A stretch of 39,197 nucleotides of DNA from Escherichia virus LS2. Made by a program: the position numbers and the translations under genes. Below are positions 2,856-35,729 of the stretch, piece after piece. Numbering within the stretch: the stretch's first letter is position 1; every line of letters begins with the position of its first letter. The stretch lies in sequence record MN518894.2, one strand, 5' to 3'. Under the pieces are notes generated by a model. It was not told where the DNA came from. It saw only the letters and a program-made list of their open reading frames with translations, and ran no database searches.

Positions 2856-5537
2856 ATGAGCGTCATCTCTATTGACAAACATGACTTCTCTGATGTGTCG
2901 AACGCCATTGAGCCGTTTAACCTGCTGGCTGACCACTACGGACAAGACCTTGCAGTCAAACAGCTTCAGCTTGAGCATGAGGCATATACAGAAGGCGAGC
3001 GACGTTTCATCAAGAACCTTGAGCGGCAGACTGAGCGCGGGGAACTGGCAGACAATCAGGTCGCCAAGCCTTTGATGCAGACTCTGGTCCCTAAGATTGC
3101 GCAAGCCGTCAGGGAGTGGCACGAAGGCCTAGACGGGAAGCTGTCAACCTCGCGTCCTAGCGTAGCGTTCACCATGTTGAGCACTGAAGAGAAGGCCGTT
3201 AAGGACCGCTCTATGCGCATCTCCTGTGAGTCCGCTGCGGTTATCATACTGAAGGTCATACTCTCCAAGCTGGTCAAGCCTGAAGGGATACCGATTACAC
3301 CGATGGCCTCCGCGATAGGTCGCACACTTGAGGACGAAATCCGCTTCGGTCGCATCCGTGACAAAGAGAAGGAGCACTTCAAGAAGGCGATAGCTGATAA
3401 CCTGAACAAGCGAGCTGGGGCATCCTACAAAAAAGCCTACATGCAAGCGGTCGAGGCGTCCATGCTGGAGCAAGGCCAACTGGAAGATGCATGGGGTACT
3501 TGGAGTCCTACAGAGGCTGTACACGTTGGCATCAAGATGCTCGAGATTGTCATCCAGTCAACACAACTGGTCGAGCTTAAGCGGTACGGTGCTGGTAATG
3601 CAGCGGCTGACGTAGAGATGGTCCACCTGTCAGACTTCTGGGTCAAGAAGATGGCACAACGAGGATTCAGCCTTGCGGGTATCGCTCCAGTCTACCAGCC
3701 TTGCGTCGTTCCACCTAAGCCGTGGACTGGTGTCGTAGGTGGTGGGTACTGGGCCAAAGGTCGCAGACCGTTACCATTGATTCGCTTAGGGTCTAAGTCT
3801 GCGGTAGCACGTTATGAAGACGTATACATGCCTGAAGTCTATGACGCTGTGAACATCATTCAGAATACACCTTGGAAAGTTAACAAGAAGGTATTGGACG
3901 TGGTGAACATGGTCGAGAAGCTGAACAACACGCCTATTAATGACATCCCTCAGATGGAACCGCTGAAGCCTGAGGACTATGCTGGTGAAACCGAGGAGGA
4001 ACTCAAGGCATGGAAGAAGACTGCTGCTGGTATCTATCGCCGCGAGAAGGCCAGACAGTCACGCAGATTGTCCATGAGTTTCATCGTTCACCAGGCCAAC
4101 AAGTTCTCACAGTTTAAGGCCATCTGGTTCCCGTACAACATGGATTGGCGAGGTCGTGTCTACGCTGTCCCGATGTTCAACCCTCAGGGTAACGACATGC
4201 AGAAGGGGCTCCTGACTCTGGCAGTCGGCAAGCCTATCGGGGCGGATGGTTTCAAATGGCTTAAAGTCCACGGTGCAAACTGTGCGGGTGTCGATAAAGT
4301 CACCTTCGATGAGCGCATCAAGTGGGTGGAAGACAACCACGAAAACATCATGGCTGCTGCTAAGGCACCGATGGATAGTATTGAGTGGTGGGGCAAGTTA
4401 GACTCTCCGTTCTGTTTCCTCGCGTTCTGCTTCGAGTATGCTGGCGTAATGCACCACGGCCTGTCTTACTCCTGCTCGCTGCCGATAGCGTTCGATGGGT
4501 CCTGCTCTGGTATTCAGCACTTCAGTGCGATGCTTCGTGACCACATCGGTGGACATGCAGTAAACCTGACGCCATCCGGCATGGTACAAGACATCTACCG
4601 CATTGTGTCTGACCGCATTGAGGAGGAGCTTAAAGTCCTTCTGATTAACGGTACTGACAACGAGATGGTCACTCACGAGGATAAGAAAACTGGTGAGATT
4701 ACCGAACGTATCAAGCTGGGGACACGAGAGCTGGCCCGTCAGTGGCTGACATACGGTATGTCACGCAAGGTCACTAAGCGTTCAGTCATGACTCTGGCAT
4801 ACGGGTCGAAAGAGTACGGATTCGCAGACCAAGTTTACGAGGACATCGTGATGCCAGCGATTGACTCAGGGTCTGGCGCTATGTTCACTGAACCAAGCCA
4901 AGCGTCTCGCTTCATGGCAAAGATGATTTGGGAAGCTGTGAGTGTGACAGTAGTTGCTGCGGTTGACGCGATGAAGTGGCTTCAAGGTGCTGCCAAGCTG
5001 CTGGCTGCTGAGGTGAAGGACAAGAAGACTGGGGAAATCCTGAAGCCTTGCCTTCCGGTACACTGGGTCACACCTGATGGGTTCCCGGTCTGGCAGGAAT
5101 ACCGCAAGAAGGATACCACTCGTCTGAACCTGATGTTCTTAGGGTCCTTCAACCTTCAACCTACGGTCAACAAAGGTACGAAGAAAGAGCTGGACAAGCA
5201 CAAGCAGGAGTCAGGCATTAGCCCCAACTTCGTCCACTCACAAGATGGTAGCCACCTGCGGAAGACTGTAGTCCACACTCACAGCAAGTATGGCGTGATG
5301 TCATTCGCAGTGATTCACGATAGCTTCGGGACCATCCCTGCTGACGCTGAGTATCTGTTCCGTGGTGTCCGTGAGACGATGGTCGAGACATACCGCGATA
5401 ACGATGTGCTGCTTGACTTCTACGAGCAGTTTGAATACCAGCTTCATGAAAGCCAGCGCGACAAGTTGCCTGAGCTTCCGAAGAAAGGTAAACTGAATAT
5501 CGAAGACATCTTGTCTTCAGACTTTGCATTCGCTTAA
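2856..5537 (+). CDS. gp1: Single-subunit DNA-dependent RNA polymerase (T7 gene 1 homolog, 893 aa)
   Basis: Co-linear similarity to T7 RNAP throughout, including C-terminal ...HSQDGSHLRKTVV...IHDSFGT...FAFA. Confidence 0.97.
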   Translation: MSVISIDKHDFSDVSNAIEPFNLLADHYGQDLAVKQLQLEHEAYTEGERRFIKNLERQTERGELADNQVAKPLMQTLVPKIAQAVREWHEGLDGKLSTSRPSVAFTMLSTEEKAVKDRSMRISCESAAVIILKVILSKLVKPEGIPITPMASAIGRTLEDEIRFGRIRDKEKEHFKKAIADNLNKRAGASYKKAYMQAVEASMLEQGQLEDAWGTWSPTEAVHVGIKMLEIVIQSTQLVELKRYGAGNAAADVEMVHLSDFWVKKMAQRGFSLAGIAPVYQPCVVPPKPWTGVVGGGYWAKGRRPLPLIRLGSKSAVARYEDVYMPEVYDAVNIIQNTPWKVNKKVLDVVNMVEKLNNTPINDIPQMEPLKPEDYAGETEEELKAWKKTAAGIYRREKARQSRRLSMSFIVHQANKFSQFKAIWFPYNMDWRGRVYAVPMFNPQGNDMQKGLLTLAVGKPIGADGFKWLKVHGANCAGVDKVTFDERIKWVEDNHENIMAAAKAPMDSIEWWGKLDSPFCFLAFCFEYAGVMHHGLSYSCSLPIAFDGSCSGIQHFSAMLRDHIGGHAVNLTPSGMVQDIYRIVSDRIEEELKVLLINGTDNEMVTHEDKKTGEITERIKLGTRELARQWLTYGMSRKVTKRSVMTLAYGSKEYGFADQVYEDIVMPAIDSGSGAMFTEPSQASRFMAKMIWEAVSVTVVAAVDAMKWLQGAAKLLAAEVKDKKTGEILKPCLPVHWVTPDGFPVWQEYRKKDTTRLNLMFLGSFNLQPTVNKGTKKELDKHKQESGISPNFVHSQDGSHLRKTVVHTHSKYGVMSFAVIHDSFGTIPADAEYLFRGVRETMVETYRDNDVLLDFYEQFEYQLHESQRDKLPELPKKGKLNIEDILSSDFAFA

Positions 5538-5549
5538 CAGGAGAGAGTT

Positions 5550-5765
5550 ATGAAATTTGCACACAAGCATGCTGGAGTTAAGGGCGGGACTCAAATCGTG
5601 ACCGTAACAGAACACAACGGCAATGGTCTGGTGAAGACCACGGTCATTCCTACCGAAATGTCAAAGCAGCTTAACGTCCCATTCAAGACCCTCGTCTATC
5701 TTGTGGAATCCAGCCACGAGAAATACCTGAAAGACGCAGTGACCAAGCTGGAGCAGACCAAATGA
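5550..5765 (+). CDS. Hypothetical protein (71 aa) between RNAP and the gene 1.1 promoter
   Basis: Good Shine-Dalgarno GGAGAG; natural codon usage; a degenerate second copy lies at 5843-6151. Confidence 0.65.
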   Translation: MKFAHKHAGVKGGTQIVTVTEHNGNGLVKTTVIPTEMSKQLNVPFKTLVYLVESSHEKYLKDAVTKLEQTK

Positions 5766-5839
5766 CAGACCTACAGTTACTGGCCTTGTGGCTGGGAGCA
5801 CTCGCAGTATTCACTTTAATCCAAAGCAGAAGAGGTTAA
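5762..5839 (+). CDS. Small hydrophobic peptide ORF (25 aa, MTDLQLLALWLGALAVFTLIQSRRG)
   Basis: ATGA overlap with the upstream stop; single predicted transmembrane helix; weak support. Confidence 0.3.
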   Translation: MTDLQLLALWLGALAVFTLIQSRRG

Positions 5840-5842
5840 CCC

Positions 5843-6151
5843 GAAATTTGCACACAAGCATGCTGGAGTTAAGGGCGGGACTCAAATGAACCATCCAGTG
5901 ACCGTAACATAATCTTGAGCTGGCTAACCGGGAACACACACGGCAATGGTCCAAGATTTAGAAGGCTCTGGTGAAGACCACGGTCATTCCTACCGAAATT
6001 AAGCGGATGGTCGGCCTGAAGTTCAAGGCTCTGTTCAAGACCCTCGTCTATCTTGTGGAATTCAAGACCGGGCCAGCCACGAGAAATACCAGAAAGACGC
6101 ACTTCACCACGAGTCGAGACAAGCTGGAGCAGACCAAATGACAGACCTACA
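5843..6151 (+). pseudogene. Block-mosaic degenerate copy of 5552-5775 (gene 5550-5765 plus the first codons of the next ORF)
   Basis: Nine blocks of 6-46 nt 100% identical to the upstream gene, separated by eight replaced blocks of 2-34 nt; ATG replaced by CCG; frame broken. Confidence 0.6.
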
Positions 6152-6343
6152 CGGATGGCTCTCAGAAGGACTTTGAGTACCGACTGAGCGACATCGACGG
6201 TCGCATCCAGTATGACTACGAGCAGGTTAAAGTCTATGGACAGGAGGCCGAACGTGAGCGAGCGATTCAGGCATTCACGCAGGTAAGACCGCGCATCATC
6301 TTACCCCTTTGCCTCCCATTGCCGTTAACCGTTAAAATTCCGT

Positions 6344-6395
6344 GTCGACGTACGTACGTACGTACGTACGTACGTACGTTGCATGCATGCATGCA
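6344..6395. repeat. GTCGAC followed by (ACGT)8 (6348-6379) and (TGCA)4 (6380-6395)
   Basis: Perfect tetranucleotide periodicity; alternating purine-pyrimidine, fully self-complementary; contains SalI, BsiWI, SnaBI, SphI and NsiI recognition sequences. Confidence 0.95.
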
Positions 6396-6417
6396 CTAAA
6401 CTATCACTATAGGATTA
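6395..6417 (+). promoter_or_regulatory. Phage-RNAP promoter (+1 near 6412), phi1.1 equivalent
   Basis: cactaaactatcactata G gatta. Confidence 0.8.
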
Positions 6418-6458
6418 GACTCAAGGTCATGACTCAAAGTCGTGGCCTTCATGATTAA
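6417..6458 (+). promoter_or_regulatory. RNase III-type processing site (R1.1-like)
   Basis: agactcaaggtc...gtggccttcatgatta resembles the T7 R1.1 site as I recall it; two further copies at 13113 and 36188. Confidence 0.6.
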
Positions 6459-6497
6459 CCGGTACGACTCAGGTTCAATTACCGGAGCTGTACACCA

Positions 6498-6671
6498 ATG
6501 TATCAGAACACTATCAACTTCGAGCGAATCCGTGAACGTCAGCAGACTGAAGATTATATTCCGAAGGGACGCAAGCTGAACAAGACCAAGCGTGGTGGAG
6601 GTGTCAAGGGTGCTTTCCGTAACGCTGAAGGCAAAGACGCTCTATGGTCAACCAAGAGAAATACTTCGTAG
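6498..6671 (+). CDS. gp1.1: gp1.1-like small basic protein (57 aa)
   Basis: Contains KGRKLNKTKR as in T7 gp1.1 (from memory); below the ORF-track length cutoff. Confidence 0.65.
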   Translation: MYQNTINFERIRERQQTEDYIPKGRKLNKTKRGGGVKGAFRNAEGKDALWSTKRNTS

Positions 6672-6686
6672 GAGTGTAACAAATTC

Positions 6687-6950
6687 ATGAACCATTACGA
6701 GCTTAAAGATTTCCTTTCAAAGCAGCAAAGAGTCTTGGACTTGTGGTTGAGCACGACTGGTATGCTCCAGCGTAGACTTAAGGTAGAGCGAGTGTCCTTC
6801 AGGACAGACTACAGCAAGAACGGCTACGAGCGAGGGACCTGCTACCGAGACTTGAGTTTACTGGACTCACTGGGTCCAACAGAATACGCCGATGCCATCG
6901 GTCCGGCTTACAACGGTCTCGCTTACACAATTTGGAGGATAACACAATGA
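6687..6950 (+). CDS. Hypothetical protein (87 aa) at the gene 1.2 position
   Basis: ORF between gp1.1 and ligase; stop overlaps the ligase ATG; no clear similarity to T7 gp1.2. Confidence 0.6.
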   Translation: MNHYELKDFLSKQQRVLDLWLSTTGMLQRRLKVERVSFRTDYSKNGYERGTCYRDLSLLDSLGPTEYADAIGPAYNGLAYTIWRITQ

Positions 6951-7999
6951 CAACTATCAAAACCAACCCGCATCGCGCTGTAGATTACTCTGAGTCAGGC
7001 GTTAAGAAAGCGCTTGAAGCTGCTGGGTCGCTGGAAGCCGAAGTGAAGTATGACGGTGTGCGGTTGAATATTCCGGTGATGCGCGAAGGTGAGAACTACT
7101 GGTTAAGCCGTGAGTCAAAAACGCTTCCGGCCTTAGACTGGGTCAACAGTGAGTCAGGACATGCATGCCGTGCGGCCGACTGGCGATGGTTCCTGAAGCA
7201 AGCAGGACATGAAGTCGTCGGTCTGCTGATTGACGGAGAGGTGCTGGTCAAGGGTGTAGACTTCAACACATCCTCAGGTCTTATCCGCACCATGTGGCTG
7301 ACCCCAAGCAACTACAAGTGCGCTGAAGGCTATCCAAGACGTGGCAACAAGGTCCCATTCCAGATAGCCCGGTTACTACTAAAAGTGGTCGTCTACGGGG
7401 TCATCGACCTTAACATCATCAACGACCCGAAAGCCGAAGGTCCTATCCATAGCGTCACACGCCTGAAGGCCGAAGCTATCGTCCCTCTCCTCCAGAAATA
7501 CTTCCCGGAAATAGACTGGGTTCTGTCTGAGTCATACATCGTGTTTGAGCTTGAGGAGCTTAACTACTTGTATGAAAAGAAGAGCCGAGAGGGCCATGAG
7601 GGTCTGGTGGTTAAAGACCCACTGGGACGCTGGAAGCGTGGCAAGAAGTCAGGTATGTTCAAGATGAAACCCGAAGAGGGCACGGACGGTACGTTGTACG
7701 GCCTGATATGGGGAACAGAAGGTCTAGCCAACGAAGGTATGGTCATCGGCTTTGACGTTATGCTTGAGAACGGGATGGAAGTGAACGCGTGCGGCCTGAC
7801 CGAAGAACAGAAAGATGAATTTACCGCGAGCGTGCTGAACTGGCGCAAAGGCCTGTGCAGCAGCACCATTTATGGCAACCCGTTTGCGGGCAACCAGGTG
7901 GAAGTGCTGTTTATGGAACGCTTTCCGGATGGCAGCCTGCGCCATCCGAGCTTTAAATGCTGGCGCGGCACCGAAGATAACCCGACCGTGAAAAGCTAG
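6947..7999 (+). CDS. gp1.3: ATP-dependent DNA ligase (T7 gene 1.3 homolog); true start ATG 6947 (MTTIKTNP...), C-terminal 73 codons recoded
   Basis: GGAGGA 7 nt upstream of ATG 6947; IKTNP N-terminus and C-terminal PDGSLRHPSF...RGTEDNP match T7 ligase. Confidence 0.93.
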   Translation: MTTIKTNPHRAVDYSESGVKKALEAAGSLEAEVKYDGVRLNIPVMREGENYWLSRESKTLPALDWVNSESGHACRAADWRWFLKQAGHEVVGLLIDGEVLVKGVDFNTSSGLIRTMWLTPSNYKCAEGYPRRGNKVPFQIARLLLKVVVYGVIDLNIINDPKAEGPIHSVTRLKAEAIVPLLQKYFPEIDWVLSESYIVFELEELNYLYEKKSREGHEGLVVKDPLGRWKRGKKSGMFKMKPEEGTDGTLYGLIWGTEGLANEGMVIGFDVMLENGMEVNACGLTEEQKDEFTASVLNWRKGLCSSTIYGNPFAGNQVEVLFMERFPDGSLRHPSFKCWRGTEDNPTVKS

Positions 8000-8152
8000 C
8001 AGAACCCACGGTCCTATACCAGGGTGTGTGACTCAGGCGGTGAACCCGTAGTCACTGCCAATCTGGAGAGAAATACGTTCAATACCAGAAATCAACTGGT
8101 CGATGGCAATAAAGCGTACGTCAGCCGAGGCGGTAGCCTAAGAGATTCATTA

Positions 8153-8192
8153 TAATGTCAACCCAGTGGTCATTAATGTCAACCCAGTGGTC
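8153..8192 (+). repeat. Tandem 19-bp direct repeat taatgtcaacccagtggtc x2 (8153-8171, 8174-8192)
   Basis: Exact duplicate; second copy forms the 5-prime arm of the terminator hairpin. Confidence 0.9.
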
Positions 8193-8536: not shown

Positions 8537-8935
8537 ATGGGGAGGGTGTCATACCACCACAGACTGTCAAGCCTGTATTGGTGTCGACCGCTTCCACTGC
8601 TGACGACCGCTTCCAAACTTGTAGGTAACAAAATCGACGCCGTCCGCAAGCCGTCCCACTATCAGGTCTTTGATGGTGTGGAATCCATTGAGATTATCGC
8701 CCGGTCCATGACTGTCAGCGAGTTCCGTGGTTTCTGCATGGGTAACGTCCTGAAGTATCGACTCCGAGCTGGTAAGAAGTCCGAGCTGGCTACTATGGAG
8801 AAGGACCTAAACAAAGCGGCCTTCTATCAGGAGCTGTTCGACCTGCATAAAGGTAAGTGCTATGCCGCCGAGAGACTGGTGCCGGAGAGAGTGACTCTCA
8901 ACCCGGACTATGCATTACCTATACATATACCATAA
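8537..8935 (+). CDS. Hypothetical protein, DUF3310-like (132 aa)
   Basis: AAGGAG 8 nt upstream; motif PSHYQ...GNVLKYRLRAGKK resembles DUF3310 from memory. Confidence 0.55.
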   Translation: MGRVSYHHRLSSLYWCRPLPLLTTASKLVGNKIDAVRKPSHYQVFDGVESIEIIARSMTVSEFRGFCMGNVLKYRLRAGKKSELATMEKDLNKAAFYQELFDLHKGKCYAAERLVPERVTLNPDYALPIHIP

Positions 8936-10544: not shown

Positions 10545-10992
10545 GGTTCAGTTCAACCCACGGTCCCGGACTGACGCTATCTTCGTTCACTGTTCGGCTA
10601 CCAAGCCAGATATGGACATCGGGGTAGAGACCATCCGTATGTGGCACAAGCAGCAAGGCTGGCTGGACGTAGGCTACCACTTTATCATCAAGCGAGATGG
10701 CACTGTGGAAGAGGGTCGCCCGGTCAATGTCGTAGGGTCACACGTTAAGGACTGGAACTCAAAGTCCGTAGGCGTCTGCCTTGTAGGTGGAATTGACGCT
10801 AAGGGCAAGTTTAAAGCTAACTTCACTCCGGCCCAGATGCACTCCCTGCGCAACAAGCTGGCTGACCTGAAGGCCCTGTATCCTCAGGCAGAAATAAAAG
10901 CACACCATGACGTAGCACCTAAGGCGTGTCCAAGTTTCGACTTGCAACGCTGGCTGACTACCAACGAACTGGTCACTTCCGACCGAAGCTAA
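10534..10992 (+). CDS. gp3.5: N-acetylmuramoyl-L-alanine amidase / lysozyme (T7 gp3.5 homolog)
   Basis: AIFVHCSATKP...WHKQQGWLDVGYHFIIKRDGTVEEGR...KACPSFDL matches T7 lysozyme. Confidence 0.95.
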   Translation: MVSKVQFNPRSRTDAIFVHCSATKPDMDIGVETIRMWHKQQGWLDVGYHFIIKRDGTVEEGRPVNVVGSHVKDWNSKSVGVCLVGGIDAKGKFKANFTPAQMHSLRNKLADLKALYPQAEIKAHHDVAPKACPSFDLQRWLTTNELVTSDRS

Positions 10993-11128
10993 TCACCGGA
11001 AACATGGGACCATGAGTCCTATGGAAAGTCGTCATTTAGAATTGCGGAGTGACGAATGGCTAAATCGTATTAAGTATCAACAGCCGAGGGTCCACGTTCA
11101 GGTATGATCCACGACAACAAGGCTGAAG

Positions 11129-11151
11129 GCTAAACTATCACCTTAGGGATG
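11129..11151 (+). promoter_or_regulatory. Phage-RNAP promoter, deviant core (ctatcacctta G gg), +1 near 11146
   Basis: gctaaactatcacctta G ggatg; three mismatches to the consensus in -4..-2. Confidence 0.5.
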
Positions 11152-11198: not shown

Positions 11199-12902
<1,704 letters not shown>

Positions 12903-12980
12903 AAGGGACATCGCGGACTATAAGAACGTCGCGGAGGACACGTACGGCTAAAAAAACTTAAAGCTCGCTACCATCGGTTC

Positions 12981-13173: not shown

Positions 13174-15345
13174 ATGTTTGACCTTAAGAGTATCTGGGGT
13201 TCTGACATAGAGACCAACGGTCTCCTTGATACAGTATCCCAGTTTCACTGTGGGGTCCTGATTAACGCCGAGTCGAATGAGACCCTTAAGTATGGGGTAG
13301 CTCCGATGGTCGGTATCGTCGGTGGCTTCAAAGAGTATGTACAGAAGGTGGAAGAGATTGCCGCATCACCTGATGGTATGCTGGTATTCCACAACGGTAT
13401 CAACTATGACGTCCCGGCTATTGACAAGCTGAAGCGTCTGTACTTTGGGAAACGCTTTAACTTCCCGAAACACAAGATGATTGATACCTTGGTGCTGGGA
13501 CGCTTGATGTATCCAAACATTAAGTTCTCAGACATGGGCGCAGTGAAAGCTGGTCGTCTGCCACCTAAGATGATGGGACGCCAGTCTCTTGAGGCTTGGG
13601 GCTATCGTCTCGGTGAGATGAAAGGTGAGTACAAACACGATTACGTTGCCAAGTGCAAGGCTGAAGGTATCGAATATAAGGCTGGGGACGAATGGTTGTT
13701 CCCATCTCAGGAGATGCTAGACTATAACGTTCAAGACGTTGTGGTCACACTGGCGTTGTTCAAGAAGTTCCTGACTGACAAGTATTACTTCCAGTCTGAA
13801 CAGTTCGCTTTCGACCAGATTTATGCGTTGCGTCTGGAACATGATGCTGCGTGGACCTGTGCGAAGATGGAACGTAACGGCTATCCGATGAACACCGAGA
13901 TGGTCGAAGGCTTATATCGTGAACTCACCGTCAAACGTGCAGAGTTGTTGGACAAGCTGCGTTCGACTTTCGGTAGCTGGTATGCACCAAAGGGAGGCAA
14001 GGAGTTCTTCAAGCACCCACGGACAGGCAAGGACCTTCCGAAGTATCCGCGAGTCGTGTATCCTAAGGTCGGGTCAGTATTCAAGAAGCCGAAGAACAAA
14101 GCTCAACGATTAGGTCTGGAGCCTTGCGAGTTCGACTCACGAGACACGATGGAAGGAGCACCGTTCACACCTATCACTTACGTTGAGTTTAATCCGGGAA
14201 GCGGAGACCACTTAGCGAAAGTCCTGATGGAGCGTGGCTGGGAGCCTGTGGACTTCACTGACACCGGGAAACCTGTAGTCGATGACGAGACGTTAGAACA
14301 CGTTAAGTTACCAGACGAAGAGGCTCAGGCTTGCGTAGAGCTGGTCCGTGAGTATCTGGTAGTCCAGAAGCGCATCGGTCAGGCTGCTGAAGGTAAGAAC
14401 GCATGGTTGAAACTTGTAGGTCCAGACGGACGTATGCACGGTTCAATCAACCCATGCGGGGCAGTAACCGGACGTGCTACTCATAGTTCACCAAACATGG
14501 CTCAGGTCCCTGCTAACGGTGCTCCGTATGGTGAGATTTGCCGTGGTGCTTTCGGTGCAGCTTGGAACAAGACGGATGGTAAGCCAGACCCTTGGATTCA
14601 AGTGGGCGTGGATGCCTCAGGTCTTGAGCTTCGTTGTCTGGGGAACCGAGCGGCCCCGTTTGATGGTGGAGCCTATGCGAAGACTGTGGTAGAAGGGGAC
14701 ATCCACTGGGCCAACGCAGTAAACGCTGGGTTAGCACCTAACGTCCCACGCGATAAGTCGAACCACGACCATGAGGCTTTCCGTAACAACGCTAAGACGT
14801 TCATCTATGCGTTCCTGTATGGTGCAGGGGCCGCTAAGATTGGACTGATAGTCGGTGGCGGTAAGAAGGAAGGTTCAGCTCTCATGAAGAAATTCATTGA
14901 GGGTACACCAGCTATCAAGGATCTGCGAGAGGCTGTGAAGAATACGTTAATCTCAGACTCTAAGTGGGTGGATGGAGAGAACATCGTCAAGTGGAAACGC
15001 CGTTGGTTGCGTGGACTTGATGGTCGCCGTATCCACATCCGGTCGCCGCACTCAGCACTTAACGCCTTACTTCAGGGTGATGGTGCGGTGGTCTGTAAAC
15101 ACTGGCTTGGCGAGAAGGAACCTAAGCTGGAAGAGGCAAAATACGTGCATGGCTGGGATGGTGACTTTGCGTGGATGGCTTTTGTCCATGATGAAGTTCA
15201 AGTTGCCGGAAGGACTATGGAAATAGCTGAGGACATCGTTAAGGTGGCGCAATCCACAATGCGAGAGGTTGGAGAGTTCTACAAGTTCAAGTGTGTACTT
15301 GACACCGAGGGAAAGATAGGATCGACGTGGAAGGAGTGTCACTAA
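13174..15345 (+). CDS. gp5: DNA polymerase (T7 gp5 homolog)
   Basis: Co-linear with T7 gp5 (N-terminal exonuclease D-I-E, motifs NYDVP, RATHSSPN, AKTFIYAFLYGAG, HDE). Confidence 0.96.
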   Translation: MFDLKSIWGSDIETNGLLDTVSQFHCGVLINAESNETLKYGVAPMVGIVGGFKEYVQKVEEIAASPDGMLVFHNGINYDVPAIDKLKRLYFGKRFNFPKHKMIDTLVLGRLMYPNIKFSDMGAVKAGRLPPKMMGRQSLEAWGYRLGEMKGEYKHDYVAKCKAEGIEYKAGDEWLFPSQEMLDYNVQDVVVTLALFKKFLTDKYYFQSEQFAFDQIYALRLEHDAAWTCAKMERNGYPMNTEMVEGLYRELTVKRAELLDKLRSTFGSWYAPKGGKEFFKHPRTGKDLPKYPRVVYPKVGSVFKKPKNKAQRLGLEPCEFDSRDTMEGAPFTPITYVEFNPGSGDHLAKVLMERGWEPVDFTDTGKPVVDDETLEHVKLPDEEAQACVELVREYLVVQKRIGQAAEGKNAWLKLVGPDGRMHGSINPCGAVTGRATHSSPNMAQVPANGAPYGEICRGAFGAAWNKTDGKPDPWIQVGVDASGLELRCLGNRAAPFDGGAYAKTVVEGDIHWANAVNAGLAPNVPRDKSNHDHEAFRNNAKTFIYAFLYGAGAAKIGLIVGGGKKEGSALMKKFIEGTPAIKDLREAVKNTLISDSKWVDGENIVKWKRRWLRGLDGRRIHIRSPHSALNALLQGDGAVVCKHWLGEKEPKLEEAKYVHGWDGDFAWMAFVHDEVQVAGRTMEIAEDIVKVAQSTMREVGEFYKFKCVLDTEGKIGSTWKECH

Positions 15346-15841: not shown

Positions 15842-16023
15842 AGTCGAGAAGGATCACCGCAAGTACGCTGAGTTGGTCTGTGGAGTGATACCTACGGCTC
15901 AGAGGTAAATCACTGGGACGTATATCGCCAAGTTCAGAAGGAGACCGAAATGTCTTCCAACTTCTGGAGCCAGACATTTATTCGCTGGAAAGGAGCTGCC
16001 GAGGAAGTCGAGCCGAAAGTCTG

Positions 16024-19842: not shown

Positions 19843-19860
19843 ACTATCACTATAGGAACA
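19838..19860 (+). promoter_or_regulatory. Phage-RNAP promoter (+1 near 19855), phi9 equivalent
   Basis: gcctaaactatcactata G gaaca. Confidence 0.8.
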
Positions 19861-19957
19861 ACAAAAGTAAGACCGCGTAAGCCAACTCTAGGGGAGGCAT
19901 AAACTAGACTGCGCAGGCAGGTGTTGGCCTATTAACGACTTAAAGGAGAATGACTCA

Positions 19958-20848
19958 ATGTCTCAATCAGTTTATGCCGAGTTCGGCGTTAGCTCTAATG
20001 CAATCACTGGTTCCGTTGAGGACCTGAACGAACACCAGAAGTCTATGCTTGAACAGGACGTATCGGTTCGTGATGGCGACGATGCTATTACCTTCAAGCA
20101 ACTGGAAGCTGAAACCGAAGAGGCTACCGAAGAAGACGATAACGTCGACGAGACTGAAGGTGCGTCGTACGAAGACCACGAGTCCGATGACGAAGAGTCT
20201 GAGACCGATGGTGAGCAGCCTGAGTTCATCGAACTGGGTGATGCACCAAAAGAGCTGACCGAAAGTGTCACCGCTCTGGATGAAAACGAAGCTGCATTCG
20301 ACGACCTGGTGTCTTCTGCTGTAGAAGCTGGCAAGGTCACTGCTGATGAAATTACCGCTATCAAGGCTGAATACGCCAAGGACGGTAAGCTGTCTGACGC
20401 ATCCTACGCTAAGTTGCAGGAAGCAGGTTACACCAAGCGTTTCGTAGATTCGTTTGTCCGTGGTCAGGAAGCTCTTGCTGAACAGTATGCTGCTGGTGTG
20501 GTTCGCTACGCTGGTGGTGCTGAACAGTTTAATCGCATCCTGTCACACCTTGAGTCCAACGACCCGTCAACTCGTGAAGCACTTGAAGCTGCTATCGTTC
20601 GTAAGGACATTGCGACTACCAAAGCTCTGCTGAATCTGGCTGGCAAGACTCTGGGTAAAGCTGTAGGTGTTAAACCTCAGCGAACCATCACCACTCAGGC
20701 TAAACCTGTGGTCGCACCTAAGGCTCCTCAGACAGAAGCATTCAGCTCCAAGGCTGACATGATTAAGGCTATGAGTGACCCGCGATACCTGCGTGACGCT
20801 AAGTACACGATGGAAGTTCGCGCTAAGGTAGCTGCCTCAAGCCTGTAG
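19958..20848 (+). CDS. gp9: Capsid assembly scaffolding protein (T7 gp9 homolog)
   Basis: Acidic 296-aa protein immediately upstream of the capsid gene. Confidence 0.9.
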   Translation: MSQSVYAEFGVSSNAITGSVEDLNEHQKSMLEQDVSVRDGDDAITFKQLEAETEEATEEDDNVDETEGASYEDHESDDEESETDGEQPEFIELGDAPKELTESVTALDENEAAFDDLVSSAVEAGKVTADEITAIKAEYAKDGKLSDASYAKLQEAGYTKRFVDSFVRGQEALAEQYAAGVVRYAGGAEQFNRILSHLESNDPSTREALEAAIVRKDIATTKALLNLAGKTLGKAVGVKPQRTITTQAKPVVAPKAPQTEAFSSKADMIKAMSDPRYLRDAKYTMEVRAKVAASSL

Positions 20849-32876: not shown

Positions 32877-35576
32877 ATGTCCACGATTACACAATTCCCT
32901 TCAGGAAACACTCGTTACAGGATTGAGTTCGACTACCTAGCCAGAACGTTTGTTGTTGTTACGCTGGTGAATAGCTCTAACCCTGCCCTGAACCGTGTAC
33001 TGGAAGTTGGTCGAGATTACCGATTCCTTAATCCAACGATGATTGAGATGTTGGTTGACCAATCAGGTTTCGACATCGTTCGTATTCACCGTCAGACTGG
33101 AACTGACTTAGTGGTAGACTTCAGGAATGGCTCAGTGTTGACAGCTAGTGACCTGACCAATGCAGAGCTTCAGGCTATCCATATTGCAGAAGAAGGTCGA
33201 GACCAAACTGTTGACTTAGCGAAGGAATATGCCGATGCTGCTGGTAACTCTGCTGGCAACGCTAAGGATAGCGAGGACGAAGCACGACGAATCGCTGAGA
33301 GTATCAAGGCATCTGGTCTGCGAGGCTATATTACCCGTCGCTCCTTCGAGAAAGGCTTCAACGTTACAATATGGAACGAGGTACTGCTATGGGAAGAGGA
33401 TGGTGATTATTACCGATGGGATGGTGGACTGCCAAAAAACGTACCTGTTGGTTCAACTCCTGAAACGTCTGGCGGCGTTGGTTTGGGTGCGTGGGTTAGT
33501 GTTGGTGATGCGTCATTGCGCGCCCGGCCTGCCGAAAAACGTGCCGGTGGGCAGCACCCCGGAAACCAGCGGCGGCGTTGGCGCGATAACGGCGATCCGC
33601 GCGGCTGGGGCGCGATTGGCGATGGCGTGACCGATGATACCCTGGCGCTGCAGGCGTGCTTTGATACCGCGACCTGCGATATTGATCTGGGCGGCAAAAC
33701 CTATCTGGTGCGCAAAAACCCGACCCTGGCGGCGACCTATCCGAACGAACCGGATTTTAGCGATGGCAGCTATAACTATAGCCCGTGCCTGGCGCTGGTG
33801 GGCAAAAAAAACATTAAAATTCATAACGGCGCGCTGATTGTGGAAACCCATGGCCTGGATGCGATTAGCCTGATTGCGTGCGAACATGTGACCGTGGATC
33901 TGACCATTAAAGGCCCGGGCATTTTTCCGGCGATTGATACCCCGACCGGCTATGCGGAAAAAGGCGAAGCGAACTTTGGCTATGATAGCAGCCTGCTGCT
34001 GGCGCCGAACAACGCGCTGGATACCAGCGCGTATACCGGCGGCGCGTATGCGGGCGTGGCGGGCCAGTTTCCGAAATATAACGCGGATGGCAGCCAGGCG
34101 AGCGGCTGGCAGAGCACCTGGGGCACCTTTCTGGGCGGCTATATTGGCAGCTGGGCGTGCGGCGTGAAAGTGCAGCGCGCGTGCCGCGGCATTCTGATTA
34201 ACGATTGCGATATTAGCGGCTTTAACTTTGGCGCGGTGGGCATTGGCATTCGCAACACCGCGGCGGCGTATGGCGCGAGCGATTATACCACCGATGCGGA
34301 TATTCCGGATGGCGTGATGGTGATTAACACCCGCATTCGCAAATGCTATAGCGCGGGCATTTATGTGCTGAGCGGCTATCGCCTGAACTATATGGCGAAC
34401 AACATTGAAGATATTGGCCATCCGAACGGCAACGATGCGCTGAACGCGAGCTATGATCCGGGCTATGGCATTACCCATGGCCGCAACCGCCGCATTCGCA
34501 ACGTGACCATTACCGAAAACATGATTCGCAACTGCCGCCGCAAATGCATTGATTTTCATGGCGGCGGCCAGGCGATTATTGCGAAAAACCATTGCCTGGA
34601 ACATGGCGTGGTGGGCATTTATGCGAAATGCGGCCCGGGCTGGAGCCCGAACTATGAACCGTATAACCTGATTATTGCGGATAACTATGTGCGCAGCCGC
34701 GATGTGCCGGCGAGCGAAACCACCGGCCCGCTGATTGGCGCGAAATATACCCGCAGCATTGATGTGGGCGGCGGCGGCGAAGCGACCCAGGCGACCTATC
34801 CGGATCCGTTTGTGAAAATTCATAACAACTATTGCGAACTGCGCGCGTATGATGGCGTGGCGATTAGCACCGGCGCGGGCGATGATAACTATAACGTGTT
34901 TATGGATATTGATGTGAGCCATAACACCGTGGTGCTGAAATGCAACACCCCGAACAACTTTGCGGAAGGCATTGGCATTAACGCGGGCGCGGCGAGCAAC
35001 AAAGTGTATCGCGGCCAGCGCGTGAAACTGATTGGCAACAGCATTAAACAGCTGAACACCCTGAACCTGACCTATCGCAGCGCGGGCTATAAAATTCAGG
35101 GCATTCCGAAAAGCCTGATTATGCATGGCAACACCCTGGATCTGAACGTGAGCACCCAGAGCTGCAAACTGTGCGATTTTGTGATTGATAGCCGCATTAA
35201 CTATAGCTTTGAAGGCAACCAGGTGCTGAGCTTTAGCGCGCGCGATAGCGCGACCCTGCAGGAAGTGTGGCTGTATGATAACATGAAAATTACCCGCCCG
35301 GCGGCGGCGGCGGCGGCGACCATTAGCGGCAACCTGTTTCGCGGCATTTGGCAGGTGTGCATTGCGGGCACCGGCGATGCGTTTGGCGCGAAACAGACCC
35401 AGTTTGCGAGCACCGGCAGCGGCGGCACCGGCTTTGATGTGGTGCGCAGCGCGACCACCGGCTTTATTGCGACCTTTGGCATTGGCGCGAGCGGCCTGAT
35501 TGTGCCGGCGGTGACCCAGGAAAGCCAGGTGCAGATTAACCTGAAACTGGTGAGCAGCCTGGATAGCGTGGCGTAA
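32877..35576 (+). CDS. gp17: Tailspike / tail fiber (gp17 position): native T7-like N-terminal anchor (to about 33528) fused to a recoded pectate-lyase-like beta-helix (depolymerase-type) domain
   Basis: N-terminus resembles the T7 gp17 tail-binding domain (FDYLARTFVVVTL...); body contains WGAIGDGVTDDTLALQACF; single uninterrupted 899-codon ORF. Confidence 0.9.
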   Translation: MSTITQFPSGNTRYRIEFDYLARTFVVVTLVNSSNPALNRVLEVGRDYRFLNPTMIEMLVDQSGFDIVRIHRQTGTDLVVDFRNGSVLTASDLTNAELQAIHIAEEGRDQTVDLAKEYADAAGNSAGNAKDSEDEARRIAESIKASGLRGYITRRSFEKGFNVTIWNEVLLWEEDGDYYRWDGGLPKNVPVGSTPETSGGVGLGAWVSVGDASLRARPAEKRAGGQHPGNQRRRWRDNGDPRGWGAIGDGVTDDTLALQACFDTATCDIDLGGKTYLVRKNPTLAATYPNEPDFSDGSYNYSPCLALVGKKNIKIHNGALIVETHGLDAISLIACEHVTVDLTIKGPGIFPAIDTPTGYAEKGEANFGYDSSLLLAPNNALDTSAYTGGAYAGVAGQFPKYNADGSQASGWQSTWGTFLGGYIGSWACGVKVQRACRGILINDCDISGFNFGAVGIGIRNTAAAYGASDYTTDADIPDGVMVINTRIRKCYSAGIYVLSGYRLNYMANNIEDIGHPNGNDALNASYDPGYGITHGRNRRIRNVTITENMIRNCRRKCIDFHGGGQAIIAKNHCLEHGVVGIYAKCGPGWSPNYEPYNLIIADNYVRSRDVPASETTGPLIGAKYTRSIDVGGGGEATQATYPDPFVKIHNNYCELRAYDGVAISTGAGDDNYNVFMDIDVSHNTVVLKCNTPNNFAEGIGINAGAASNKVYRGQRVKLIGNSIKQLNTLNLTYRSAGYKIQGIPKSLIMHGNTLDLNVSTQSCKLCDFVIDSRINYSFEGNQVLSFSARDSATLQEVWLYDNMKITRPAAAAAATISGNLFRGIWQVCIAGTGDAFGAKQTQFASTGSGGTGFDVVRSATTGFIATFGIGASGLIVPAVTQESQVQINLKLVSSLDSVA

Positions 35577-35729
35577 GAATGCCTGTGGCTGGAAGCGGCG
35601 TTTCAGCGCCGCCGCTGCGAACGCATTGAAAGCCGCCTGACCGAACTGGAACTGATTATTAAAAAAGCGAAAGAAATTGAATCATAACAACTTTGGGTCA
35701 CGGACGACCCGCTTTAAACTGGAGGTTTT

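What the first reader, a model, noticed from the sequence alone, without database searches (positions are those of the whole stretch)
5843..6151. Block-mosaic degenerate copy of the adjacent 71-codon gene
The segment matches 5552-5775 in nine perfectly identical blocks (6-46 nt) separated by eight substituted blocks (2-34 nt), several of which echo nearby sequence (ttcaagacc, gaaggctctg). The start codon is replaced and the frame is broken. Identical blocks with no point mutations are not the pattern of gradual pseudogene decay. They suggest recent illegitimate recombination or template switching, or deliberate construction.
Basis: seen in the sequence. Interest (0 to 1): 0.6.

Follow-up and report, generated by a model that had tools for sequence, protein, structure and literature searches.

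The report
Computer-patched gene in deposited phage genome
The "mosaic gene copy" is not a natural rearrangement: a resident phage gene was overwritten, base for base, with pieces of its neighbour, most likely by sequence editing or an assembly artefact in a public phage record that also contains back-translated stretches.

Summary
Window 5843-6151 holds nine exact, colinear pieces (7-45 nt, 195-197 nt in all) of the upstream 71-codon gene (5552-5775).

It is not an inserted degenerate copy. The eight "substituted" blocks are the native sequence of the gene that relatives carry at this position, a T3 gene-1.05 homologue (PF25755). They lie in perfect register with LS3, ECG4 and Peacock, with no indel. 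Donor or native sequence explains 308 of 309 bases.

The donor pieces sit where they happen to resemble the bases they replace: 50% agreement against 25±3% for random placement. A plain global alignment of donor on native reproduces five of the eight offsets. That is the signature of an align-and-merge operation, not of recombination.

Exact protein look-ups identify the window as the GenBank record of Escherichia virus LS2 (39,197 nt). The same record has five runs made only of E. coli-preferred codons, including 665 consecutive codons that encode phage Peacock's tail-spike domain. It also carries an (ACGT)8(TGCA)4 filler.

The mosaic junction is absent from every collection searched.

Verdict: a non-biological patch that breaks gene 1.05. 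Biological interest is low. The value is as a data-quality warning for a species-exemplar genome.

The parts
5550..5765 (+). Donor: intact 71-codon gene (phrog_8082, unknown function; LS2_10, WFG77594.1). The donor span used is 5552-5775.
   Evidence: ORF; phrog_8082, E 4.8e-41, full length; exact protein on 23 contigs; the 10 contigs fetched carry the gene once each.
5776..5842 (+). Untouched native spacer with a small 25-codon ORF (5762-5839), ending in GGTTAACCC. Identical to LS3.
5843..6151 (+). The mosaic: 309 nt of the resident gene-1.05 homologue, with nine stretches overwritten in register by consecutive donor pieces.
   Evidence: against LS3: 109 native-only, 97 donor-only, 100 both, 3 neither; two of the three equal Peacock; no indel in 1021 columns.
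5843..5887 (+). Donor block 1 (= 5552-5596, offset 291). It overwrites the native gene-1.05 start (ATG at 5845-5847 in Peacock).
5898..5909 (+). Donor block 2 (= 5598-5609, offset 300).
5932..5950 (+). Donor blocks 3 and 4 (= 5610-5616 and 5617-5627, offsets 322 and 323), separated by one native base at 5939.
5968..5999 (+). Donor block 5 (= 5628-5659, offset 340).
6000..6033 (+). Longest native patch (34 nt). It contains the native ATG at 6007 that LS3 and ECG4 annotate as the start of their 130-codon ORF. Donor bases 5660-5681 are missing here.
6034..6061 (+). Donor block 6 (= 5682-5709, offset 352).
   Evidence: the best of 492 possible placements.
6073..6101 (+). Donor blocks 7 and 8 (= 5710-5727 and 5729-5738, offset 363), with one native base (A) at 6091.
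6120..6151 (+). Donor block 9 (= 5744-5775, offset 376). It carries the donor stop TGA to 6139-6141, in the native gene-1.05 frame, and truncates that ORF.
6152..6302 (+). Unaltered 3' remainder of gene 1.05. It is now without a start codon.
6303..6395 (+). 93-nt in-frame insertion ending in GTCG(ACGT)8 T(GCAT)3GCA. It is shared only with LS3 and ECG4 and absent from Peacock, Pkp-1 and EcoDS1. The LS2 record annotates a 38-codon ORF (LS2_11, 6342-6458) across it.
6396..6418 (+). Native phage RNA-polymerase promoter (CTAAACTATCACTATAGGATTAG), one of 10 copies in the window. It is intact.
   Evidence: family D1; annotated promoter in EcoDS1.

Best explanation
The segment is a non-biological patch in a deposited genome sequence. 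The window is the GenBank record of Escherichia virus LS2, a T7-like Kayfunavirus. At 5843-6151 the resident accessory gene, a homologue of T3 gene 1.05 (PF25755), was overwritten position by position with nine consecutive pieces of the neighbouring 71-codon gene. The native bases were left in place between the pieces. The layout looks like the neighbour gene was globally aligned onto the resident sequence and the two were merged in the resident's coordinates. That could have been a script, a scaffolding or consensus tool, or hand editing. The same record was patched in silico elsewhere with back-translated protein and filler repeats. The mosaic has no function. Taken literally, it deletes the gene-1.05 start and adds a premature TGA at 6139-6141, so it knocks out a dispensable accessory gene and leaves the downstream promoter intact. 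Shown: the two-parent composition, the exact register, the similarity-guided placement, the other in-silico patches, and the absence from other data. Inferred: which software or person produced it, and that the physical phage does not carry it.
For: (1) Two parents and exact register. The window aligns to LS3 without a single gap over 1021 columns. Inside 5843-6151 every base but one equals either the donor gene or native gene 1.05 of Peacock/LS3. Peacock (USA), Pkp-1 (China) and EcoDS1 carry the native sequence, so the window is the derived state.
(2) Placement follows similarity. Donor pieces agree with the bases they replace at 50% (42% after trimming matching edges), against 25±3% (23±3% trimmed) in 20,000 random placements; none reached the observed value. 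Three blocks sit at the single best of about 500 ungapped placements. A Needleman-Wunsch alignment of donor on native (+1/-1/-10/-0.5) reproduces offsets 291, 300, 323, 352 and 376, which is 128 of 195 pairs; the maximum in 300 controls was 78.
(3) Donor and recipient are not homologous: BLASTP E is about 1 and the hits are in a different register. They belong to different families, phrog_8082 versus PF25755/phrog_8103.
(4) The same record holds other sequence that cannot be natural. There are runs of 665, 74, 35, 17 and 13 consecutive codons that all use the single E. coli-preferred codon; natural genes in the window score 28-46%. The 665-codon run encodes Peacock's tail spike at 100% amino-acid identity from residue 234 onward, but only about 77% nucleotide identity. 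It is preceded by an out-of-frame back-translated duplicate of GLPKNVPVGSTPETSGG. There is also an (ACGT)8(TGCA)4 filler found only in LS2, LS3 and ECG4 among 50,697 phage records.
(5) Record identity. More than 15 window proteins match LS2 proteins exactly, on a contig of 39,197 nt, which is the window length. LS2 annotates no CDS across 5766-6341 but does annotate the 38-codon ORF 6342-6458, whereas LS3 and ECG4 annotate a 130-codon ORF there. This fits the premature stop already being present when the record was annotated.
(6) No independent support. The junction sequences are absent from the viral, metagenome and genome collections. Fourteen fetched loci (11 distinct relatives) carry the donor block once only.
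Against: No standard alignment setting reproduced the whole path: at best 128 of 195 pairs, with offsets 322, 340 and 363 missed. The exact procedure is therefore unknown. Junctions carry short microhomologies (0-6 nt, mean about 1.7, read from the class string). Real template switching also produces these. I could not see the LS2 nucleotide record, its version history or any reads. That the mosaic is in the deposited DNA is inferred from the annotation pattern and the matching length, not read directly. One base (5888 G) matches neither parent.
Confidence: 0.85

Rival explanations
1. The overwrite was added after deposition, for example as a deliberately planted, length-neutral decoy by whoever prepared this window. 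On this reading the GenBank LS2 record has intact gene 1.05.
For: The edit preserves length, so the match between window length and record length cannot exclude it. None of the ORFs inside the mosaic is on record as a protein.
Against: LS2's own annotation skips 5766-6341 and calls the 38-codon ORF 6342-6458. With an intact 130-codon ORF, as annotated in LS3 and ECG4, that call would be unexpected. The other in-silico patches are certainly in the deposited record, because the tail-spike protein WFG77622.1 contains the translation of the out-of-frame back-translated junction.
Confidence: 0.08
2. It is real DNA: serial microhomology-mediated template switching (copy-choice, FoSTeS/MMBIR-like) between the replicating gene-1.05 region and the upstream 71-codon gene in the LS2 phage.
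For: The blocks are exact with no point changes, which implies a recent event. The donor pieces are strictly colinear. There are short microhomologies at many junctions. T7-like phages recombine actively (general knowledge).
Against: Each of the eight returns to the native template lands exactly as many bases downstream as were copied from the donor, so there is no net indel. Recombination has no mechanism to count bases. Interior donor/native agreement of 42-50% is not needed for template switching but is expected from alignment. The same record holds proven in-silico sequence. No other genome or contig has the junction.
Confidence: 0.04
3. Patchy gene conversion between ancient paralogues: gene 1.05 descends from a duplicate of the 71-codon gene, and homologous tracts were converted.
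For: The replacement is in register, and donor/native agreement is above chance.
Against: There is no detectable homology: BLASTP E is about 1, and the best hits are not in the mosaic's register. The families differ. Nucleotide identity of 40-50% is far below what homologous recombination needs (general knowledge). The donor coordinate pauses across four of the eight native patches instead of advancing.
Confidence: 0.01
4. An ordinary decayed tandem duplicate (pseudogene) of the 71-codon gene.
For: The start codon is lost and the frame is broken.
Against: There is no extra length relative to relatives. There are zero point substitutions in 195 copied bases. The intervening blocks are another gene's native sequence.
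Confidence: 0.01

Closest known systems
In-silico patched or chimeric database records (reference-filled consensus, scaffold merging, back-translated gap filling)
   Same: Changes preserve register. The content comes from two parents. Placement is guided by alignment. It co-occurs with one-codon-per-amino-acid back-translation and filler repeats. It is absent from independent data.
   Different: I know of no named tool that writes a neighbouring, non-homologous gene over a resident gene. The exact procedure could not be reproduced (best 128 of 195 pairs).
T3 gene 1.05 family (PF25755, phrog_8103), the resident gene of this locus in Kayfunavirus (EcoDS1 gp1.05, LS3_10, Peacock_013/014, Pkp-1 00007)
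   Same: Same position between the 71-codon gene and the phage promoter. The native patches and the 3' part (6152-6302) are identical or nearly identical to relatives.
   Different: In the window the start and about 63% of the first 309 nt are replaced and a stop is introduced. The ORF no longer hits PF25755.
Segmental gene conversion from silent cassettes (Neisseria pilE/pilS, Borrelia vlsE)
   Same: A block mosaic of donor tracts within a recipient, with exact tracts.
   Different: Those systems need homologous cassettes. Here donor and recipient are unrelated, and the donor coordinate stalls across native patches.
Microhomology-mediated template switching (FoSTeS/MMBIR, copy-choice)
   Same: Multiple junctions with 0-6 nt of microhomology and colinear donor pieces.
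   Different: Such events change length and do not preserve the recipient's register at every return.

Membership tests
T3 gene 1.05 protein family (PF25755 / phrog_8103) | Protein hits PF25755 above the gathering score | tested here: not met
   Relatives at the same locus hit it: LS3_10 74.7 bits, Pkp-1 90.6, EcoDS1 84.6 (cut-off 27). The window's ORF 5971-6141 has no Pfam hit at E<=0.01 and only a weak phrog_8103 hit at 2.2e-4.
T3 gene 1.05 protein family (PF25755 / phrog_8103) | Synteny: lies between the 71-codon gene with its spacer and the phage promoter CTAAACTATCACTATAGG | tested here: met
   The native patches and 6152-6302 are collinear with LS3, Peacock, Pkp-1 and EcoDS1.
Tandem duplicate / pseudogene of the 71-codon gene (phrog_8082) | The copy adds length relative to genomes that lack it | tested here: not met
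   The window-LS3 alignment of 1021 columns has no gap. Peacock is in register at -2.
Tandem duplicate / pseudogene of the 71-codon gene (phrog_8082) | Divergence by scattered point substitutions and small indels | tested here: not met
   There are 0 mismatches in 195 copied bases. All differences are blocks of another gene's sequence.
Segmental gene conversion between paralogous cassettes | Donor and recipient are homologous | tested here: not met
   BLASTP E = 1.1 against both Pkp-1 and EcoDS1 gp1.05. The PHROG families differ.
Microhomology-mediated template switching | Microhomology at junctions | tested here: inconclusive
   Runs of 0-6 nt (mean about 1.7) are shared at block edges. An alignment-guided merge produces the same thing.
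Microhomology-mediated template switching | The junctions exist in physical DNA (reads or an amplicon) | not testable with these tools
   No reads for LS2 were available. The junction 25-mer and 40-mer are absent from the viral collection, and the 25-mer is also absent from the metagenome and genome collections.
Diversity-generating retroelement (TR/VR pair) | Differences between the repeats are confined to adenines of the template; a reverse transcriptase gene lies nearby | tested here: not met
   The differences are whole blocks, not A-specific. The T7-like gene complement annotated in LS3 and Peacock has no reverse transcriptase.
In-silico patched sequence | Register-preserving, two-parent composition with alignment-like placement | tested here: met
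In-silico patched sequence | Other unmistakably computational sequence in the same record | tested here: met
   Runs of 665, 74, 35, 17 and 13 codons with 100% preferred codons. The tail spike matches the Peacock protein but not its DNA. There is an (ACGT)8(TGCA)4 filler.

The most novel reading that the evidence does not exclude
The mosaic exists in the physical LS2 genome. It would then be the product of a burst of at least eight template switches between two non-homologous neighbouring genes that happened to preserve length. That would be a previously undescribed, register-keeping form of copy-choice in T7-like replication.
Probability: 0.03. Interest if true: 0.6.

Novelty: not a real feature. 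Interest (0 to 1): 0.12.

Why it matters
Biologically it does not matter. Gene 1.05 is an optional accessory gene, absent from ST1749-type Kayfunaviruses, and the mosaic encodes nothing.

It matters for data quality. The window is the only genome under the ICTV species Kayfunavirus LS2. It contains at least seven stretches that are not read-outs of natural DNA:
- this mosaic;
- five back-translated runs, totalling about 2.4 kb;
- a filler repeat.

Such stretches lower nucleotide identity to relatives, which could affect species demarcation. They create spurious singleton proteins: LS2_11, LS2_12, LS2_13, the ligase and the nucleotide kinase are each the only member of their 90% cluster. They would also mislead any scan for novel repeats, recombination or engineered sequence. 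The sister records LS3 and ECG4 share the filler and deserve the same scrutiny.

Tried and rejected
- Insertion hypothesis (5843-6395 as inserted DNA): rejected. Only 6303-6395 is extra.
- Homology between donor and gene 1.05: rejected.
- Exact reproduction of the block path by global alignment, using a grid of about 1,900 scoring schemes on Peacock and LS3 native sequence: only partial, at best 128 of 195 pairs.
- Block boundaries against 10-nt or 60-nt text-format periodicity (a copy-paste artefact): block starts modulo 10 are 3,8,2,0,8,4,3,2,0, so no pattern (by inspection).
- Misalignment with ST1749-type genomes, which carry an extra 76-codon ORF that shifts the 71-codon gene by about 244 nt, as the source of a consensus artefact: rejected. 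5550-5842 is clean, and the offsets are 291-376, not 244.
- Searches for the mosaic junctions in IMG/VR, metagenome and genome collections: no hits.
- Search for the ACGT filler in IMG/VR: no hit.
- Look-ups of the window's own contig through the look-up of encoding contigs: nothing on record. Fetching a guessed accession, MN518892, failed.
- Literature: no paper describing LS2, LS3 or ECG4 was found.
- Rfam: no family in the window.
- Sigma-70 promoter and terminator scan of 5400-6600: nothing above the shuffle expectation.
- Other window-specific segments (6680-6935, 7995-8175, 10985-11130, 15843-16023): these turned out to have natural relatives at 69-90% identity in other Kayfunaviruses, including HNH-endonuclease remnants. 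They are probably ordinary module mosaicism, not patches.

Full report
**What the window is**

The window is a nearly complete T7-like genome: an 893-aa single-subunit RNA polymerase, ligase, DNA polymerase, capsid, tail spike and terminase.

Its closest records in the phage collection are Escherichia virus LS3 and ECG4. Both are Kayfunavirus isolates from Indian sewage. Identity is 97-99.6% over most of the length. Phage Peacock is about 92% identical.

Exact-sequence look-ups show that more than 15 of the window's proteins are recorded as proteins of "Escherichia virus LS2". These include the RNA polymerase, tail spike, ligase, portal and DNA polymerase. They sit on a contig of 39,197 nt, which is exactly the window length. 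LS2 is the sole member of the species Kayfunavirus LS2. The record itself is not in the searchable phage collection.

**Check of the observation**

Nine exact blocks in 5843-6151 are colinear with 5552-5775. Their lengths are 45, 12, 7, 11, 32, 28, 18, 10 and 32 nt, and the offsets rise from 291 to 376. There is no mismatch inside any block.

The 45-mer is expected 0 times by chance. Apart from the phage promoters and two short repeats elsewhere, these are the only long repeats in the window. The copy starts at the third base of the donor's ATG, and the offsets fall in all three phases, so it has no start codon and no continuous frame.

**What the "substituted blocks" are**

Aligning 5500-6520 with LS3 gives 1021 columns without a single gap. 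The window and LS3 are identical on both sides of the segment. Inside it they differ only where the donor blocks lie.

The eight separators are therefore the native sequence of whatever normally occupies this position. That is a homologue of T3 gene 1.05: LS3_10, ECG4_07, Peacock_013/014, Pkp-1 00007 and EcoDS1 gp1.05, all PF25755 and phrog_8103. Peacock, Pkp-1 and EcoDS1 are independent isolates from the USA, China and a curated reference. All three carry the native version, so the window is the derived state.

Classifying each of the 309 positions against LS3 gives:
- 109 native only;
- 97 donor only;
- 100 both;
- 3 neither.

Two of those three equal Peacock, which leaves one unexplained base (5888 G). 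The supposed echoes of nearby sequence (TTCAAGACC, AAGGCTCTG) are conserved gene-1.05 sequence.

So nothing was inserted. A resident gene was overwritten in place. Only 6303-6395 (93 nt) is extra relative to Peacock, Pkp-1 and EcoDS1, and LS3 and ECG4 share it.

**How the pieces were placed**

The donor coordinate runs on without loss across four of the native patches (22, 1, 17 and 11 nt). It skips 1, 22, 1 and 5 donor bases at the other four. This is the shape of an alignment path with gaps in the donor.

The placement is not random. The donor pieces agree with the bases they replaced at 50%, or 42% after trimming matching edges. The same block layout laid at 20,000 random positions gives 25±3% (23±3% trimmed), and none reaches the observed value. 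Three blocks sit at the single best of about 500 ungapped placements.

A plain Needleman-Wunsch alignment of the donor on Peacock's native 309 nt reproduces offsets 291, 300, 323, 352 and 376. That is 128 of 195 pairs. With other 309-nt targets the overlap averages 22 and never exceeds 78.

The two genes are not homologous: BLASTP E is about 1 and the families differ. The agreement therefore comes from optimisation of the alignment, not from shared ancestry.

**Why this is not biology**

Recombination, copy-choice and gene conversion have no way of returning to the recipient exactly as many bases downstream as were copied from an unrelated donor, eight times in a row. Gene conversion also needs homology that is absent here. 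Pseudogene decay would give point changes and extra length, and neither is present.

The short microhomologies at the junctions (0-6 nt) fit template switching. An alignment-guided merge explains them equally well.

**Independent evidence that the record was edited in silico**

Scoring every codon against the single most frequent E. coli codon per amino acid gives 28-46% for the window's natural genes. It gives 100% for five runs:
- 33579-35573: 665 codons;
- 7775-7996: 74 codons, the ligase C-terminus, encoding the same protein as LS3's natural DNA;
- 35577-35681: 35 codons after the tail-spike stop;
- 33526-33576: 17 codons;
- 774-812: 13 codons.

No other run of 12 or more such codons exists in the window.

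The 665-codon run encodes Peacock's tail spike with no amino-acid difference from residue 234 onward. Its DNA is only about 77% identical, and it lies in exact register with Peacock. The 17-codon run is an out-of-frame back-translation of GLPKNVPVGSTPETSGG, a peptide already encoded just upstream. Its translation in the actual reading frame is part of the deposited protein WFG77622.1. These patches are therefore in the GenBank record itself.

The 93-nt insertion at 6303-6395 ends in (ACGT)8 followed by (TGCA)4. Among 50,697 phage records it occurs only in LS3 and ECG4, and it does not occur in IMG/VR.

Outside the large replaced regions, the three sister records differ mainly at small clusters. 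Each record there carries a different filler: T runs in ECG4, and C/G-rich strings such as CGTCGTCGTCG in the window.

**Was the mosaic in the deposit?**

I could not read the nucleotide record. LS2's annotation numbers the 71-codon gene LS2_10, a 38-codon ORF at 6342-6458 LS2_11, and the 57-codon gene 1.1 homologue LS2_12. Nothing is annotated across 5766-6341. LS3 and ECG4 annotate a 130-codon ORF at the equivalent of 6007-6399.

In the window that ORF is cut by the donor's TGA at 6139-6141. This explains why an otherwise implausible ORF across the filler was called instead. The mosaic was therefore very probably present when the record was annotated.

**No independent support**

The identical 71-aa protein is on record on 23 contigs read. 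The ten fetched have the gene once, in the ST1749-type context without gene 1.05. The mosaic junctions are absent from all fetched loci and from the viral, metagenome and genome collections.

**Consequences if taken literally**

The gene-1.05 start is gone. About 63% of its first 309 nt is replaced. A stop truncates the remaining ORF after 44 codons (or 56 codons if the upstream GTG at 5971 is used). The PF25755 match is lost. The downstream phage promoter (6396-6418) and the conserved sequence after it are untouched.

Gene 1.05 is optional in the genus: ST1749-type genomes lack it precisely. Even a real version would be a neutral knockout.

No Rfam family, sigma-70 promoter or terminator signal is associated with the segment.

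**Verdict**

The segment is best described as a computational overwrite of a resident gene in a deposited record that carries several other computational patches. The precise tool or hand that made it is unknown.

Biological interest is low. The practical value is a warning about the LS2 record, and probably the LS3 and ECG4 records too.

Noticed in passing
window 33579-35573 (also 33526-33576 and 35577-35681): The tail-spike receptor-binding domain is written entirely in single E. coli-preferred codons (665 in a row). It encodes Peacock's tail spike at 100% amino-acid identity but about 77% nucleotide identity. An out-of-frame back-translated duplicate of GLPKNVPVGSTPETSGG precedes it. A 35-codon back-translated peptide (ECLWLEAAFQRRRCERIESRLTELELIIKKAKEIE) with no start codon follows the stop.
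   Followed up: yes
window 7775-7996 and 774-812: There are two more back-translated runs. The last 74 codons of the DNA ligase encode the same protein as LS3's natural DNA. In the window the stop is TAG, and the natural ATGA overlap with the next gene is lost. The first 12-13 codons of the gene at about 776 encode MKHLSTITNHNE instead of LS3's MKASYTITGANE.
   Followed up: partly
window 6303-6395: A 93-nt in-frame insertion ends in GTCG(ACGT)8 T(GCAT)3GCA, just upstream of the phage promoter. It is present only in LS2, LS3 and ECG4 among 50,697 phage records and absent from IMG/VR. LS2 annotates a 38-codon ORF (LS2_11) across it. It looks like placeholder or flow-order-type sequence rather than phage DNA.
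   Followed up: partly
window 11207-11217, 12890-12952, 15116-15145, 19859-19914, 20163-20167, 6461-6497: At small in-register clusters the three sister records each carry a different filler. ECG4 has T runs (31 of its 54 private bases are T). The window is C/G-rich, for example CGTCGTCGTCG (94 of its 128 private bases are C or G). This looks as if unknown bases had been filled in arbitrarily.
   Followed up: partly
L004 (LS3) 6188-6196 and the same place in L005 (ECG4); window 6173-6181: LS3 and ECG4 have a 9-nt in-register block, ACATGCTGA, where the window and Peacock have TTGAGTACC and EcoDS1 has TCGAGTACC. Block-type errors may also exist in the sister records.
   Followed up: no
window 6498-6671, 6687-6950, 6947-7999, 8537-8935: LS2_12, LS2_13, the ligase and the nucleotide kinase are each the only member of their 90%-identity cluster among about 15 billion proteins. 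Backbone proteins sit in clusters of about 700 members. The early region 6.4-8.9 kb of this record is unusually divergent, through natural module exchange, sequence errors or both.
   Followed up: partly
window 7995-8175 and 10985-11130: These window-specific segments resemble parts of HNH homing-endonuclease genes of other Kayfunaviruses (69-85% identity). They probably mark decayed or excised homing-endonuclease insertions. A 19-nt repeat, two copies 21 nt apart (TAATGTCAACCCAGTGGTC, 8153-8192), lies at one edge.
   Followed up: partly
window 5951-5967 (native patch) and Peacock 5843-6304: In the LS2/LS3/ECG4/Peacock lineage, gene 1.05 already carries an in-frame TAG (AAG ATT TAG) where Pkp-1 has CAG. 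Peacock annotates two ORFs of 38 and 99 codons. LS3 also has ACG in place of the upstream ATG. The gene was already split or decaying before the overwrite.
   Followed up: partly
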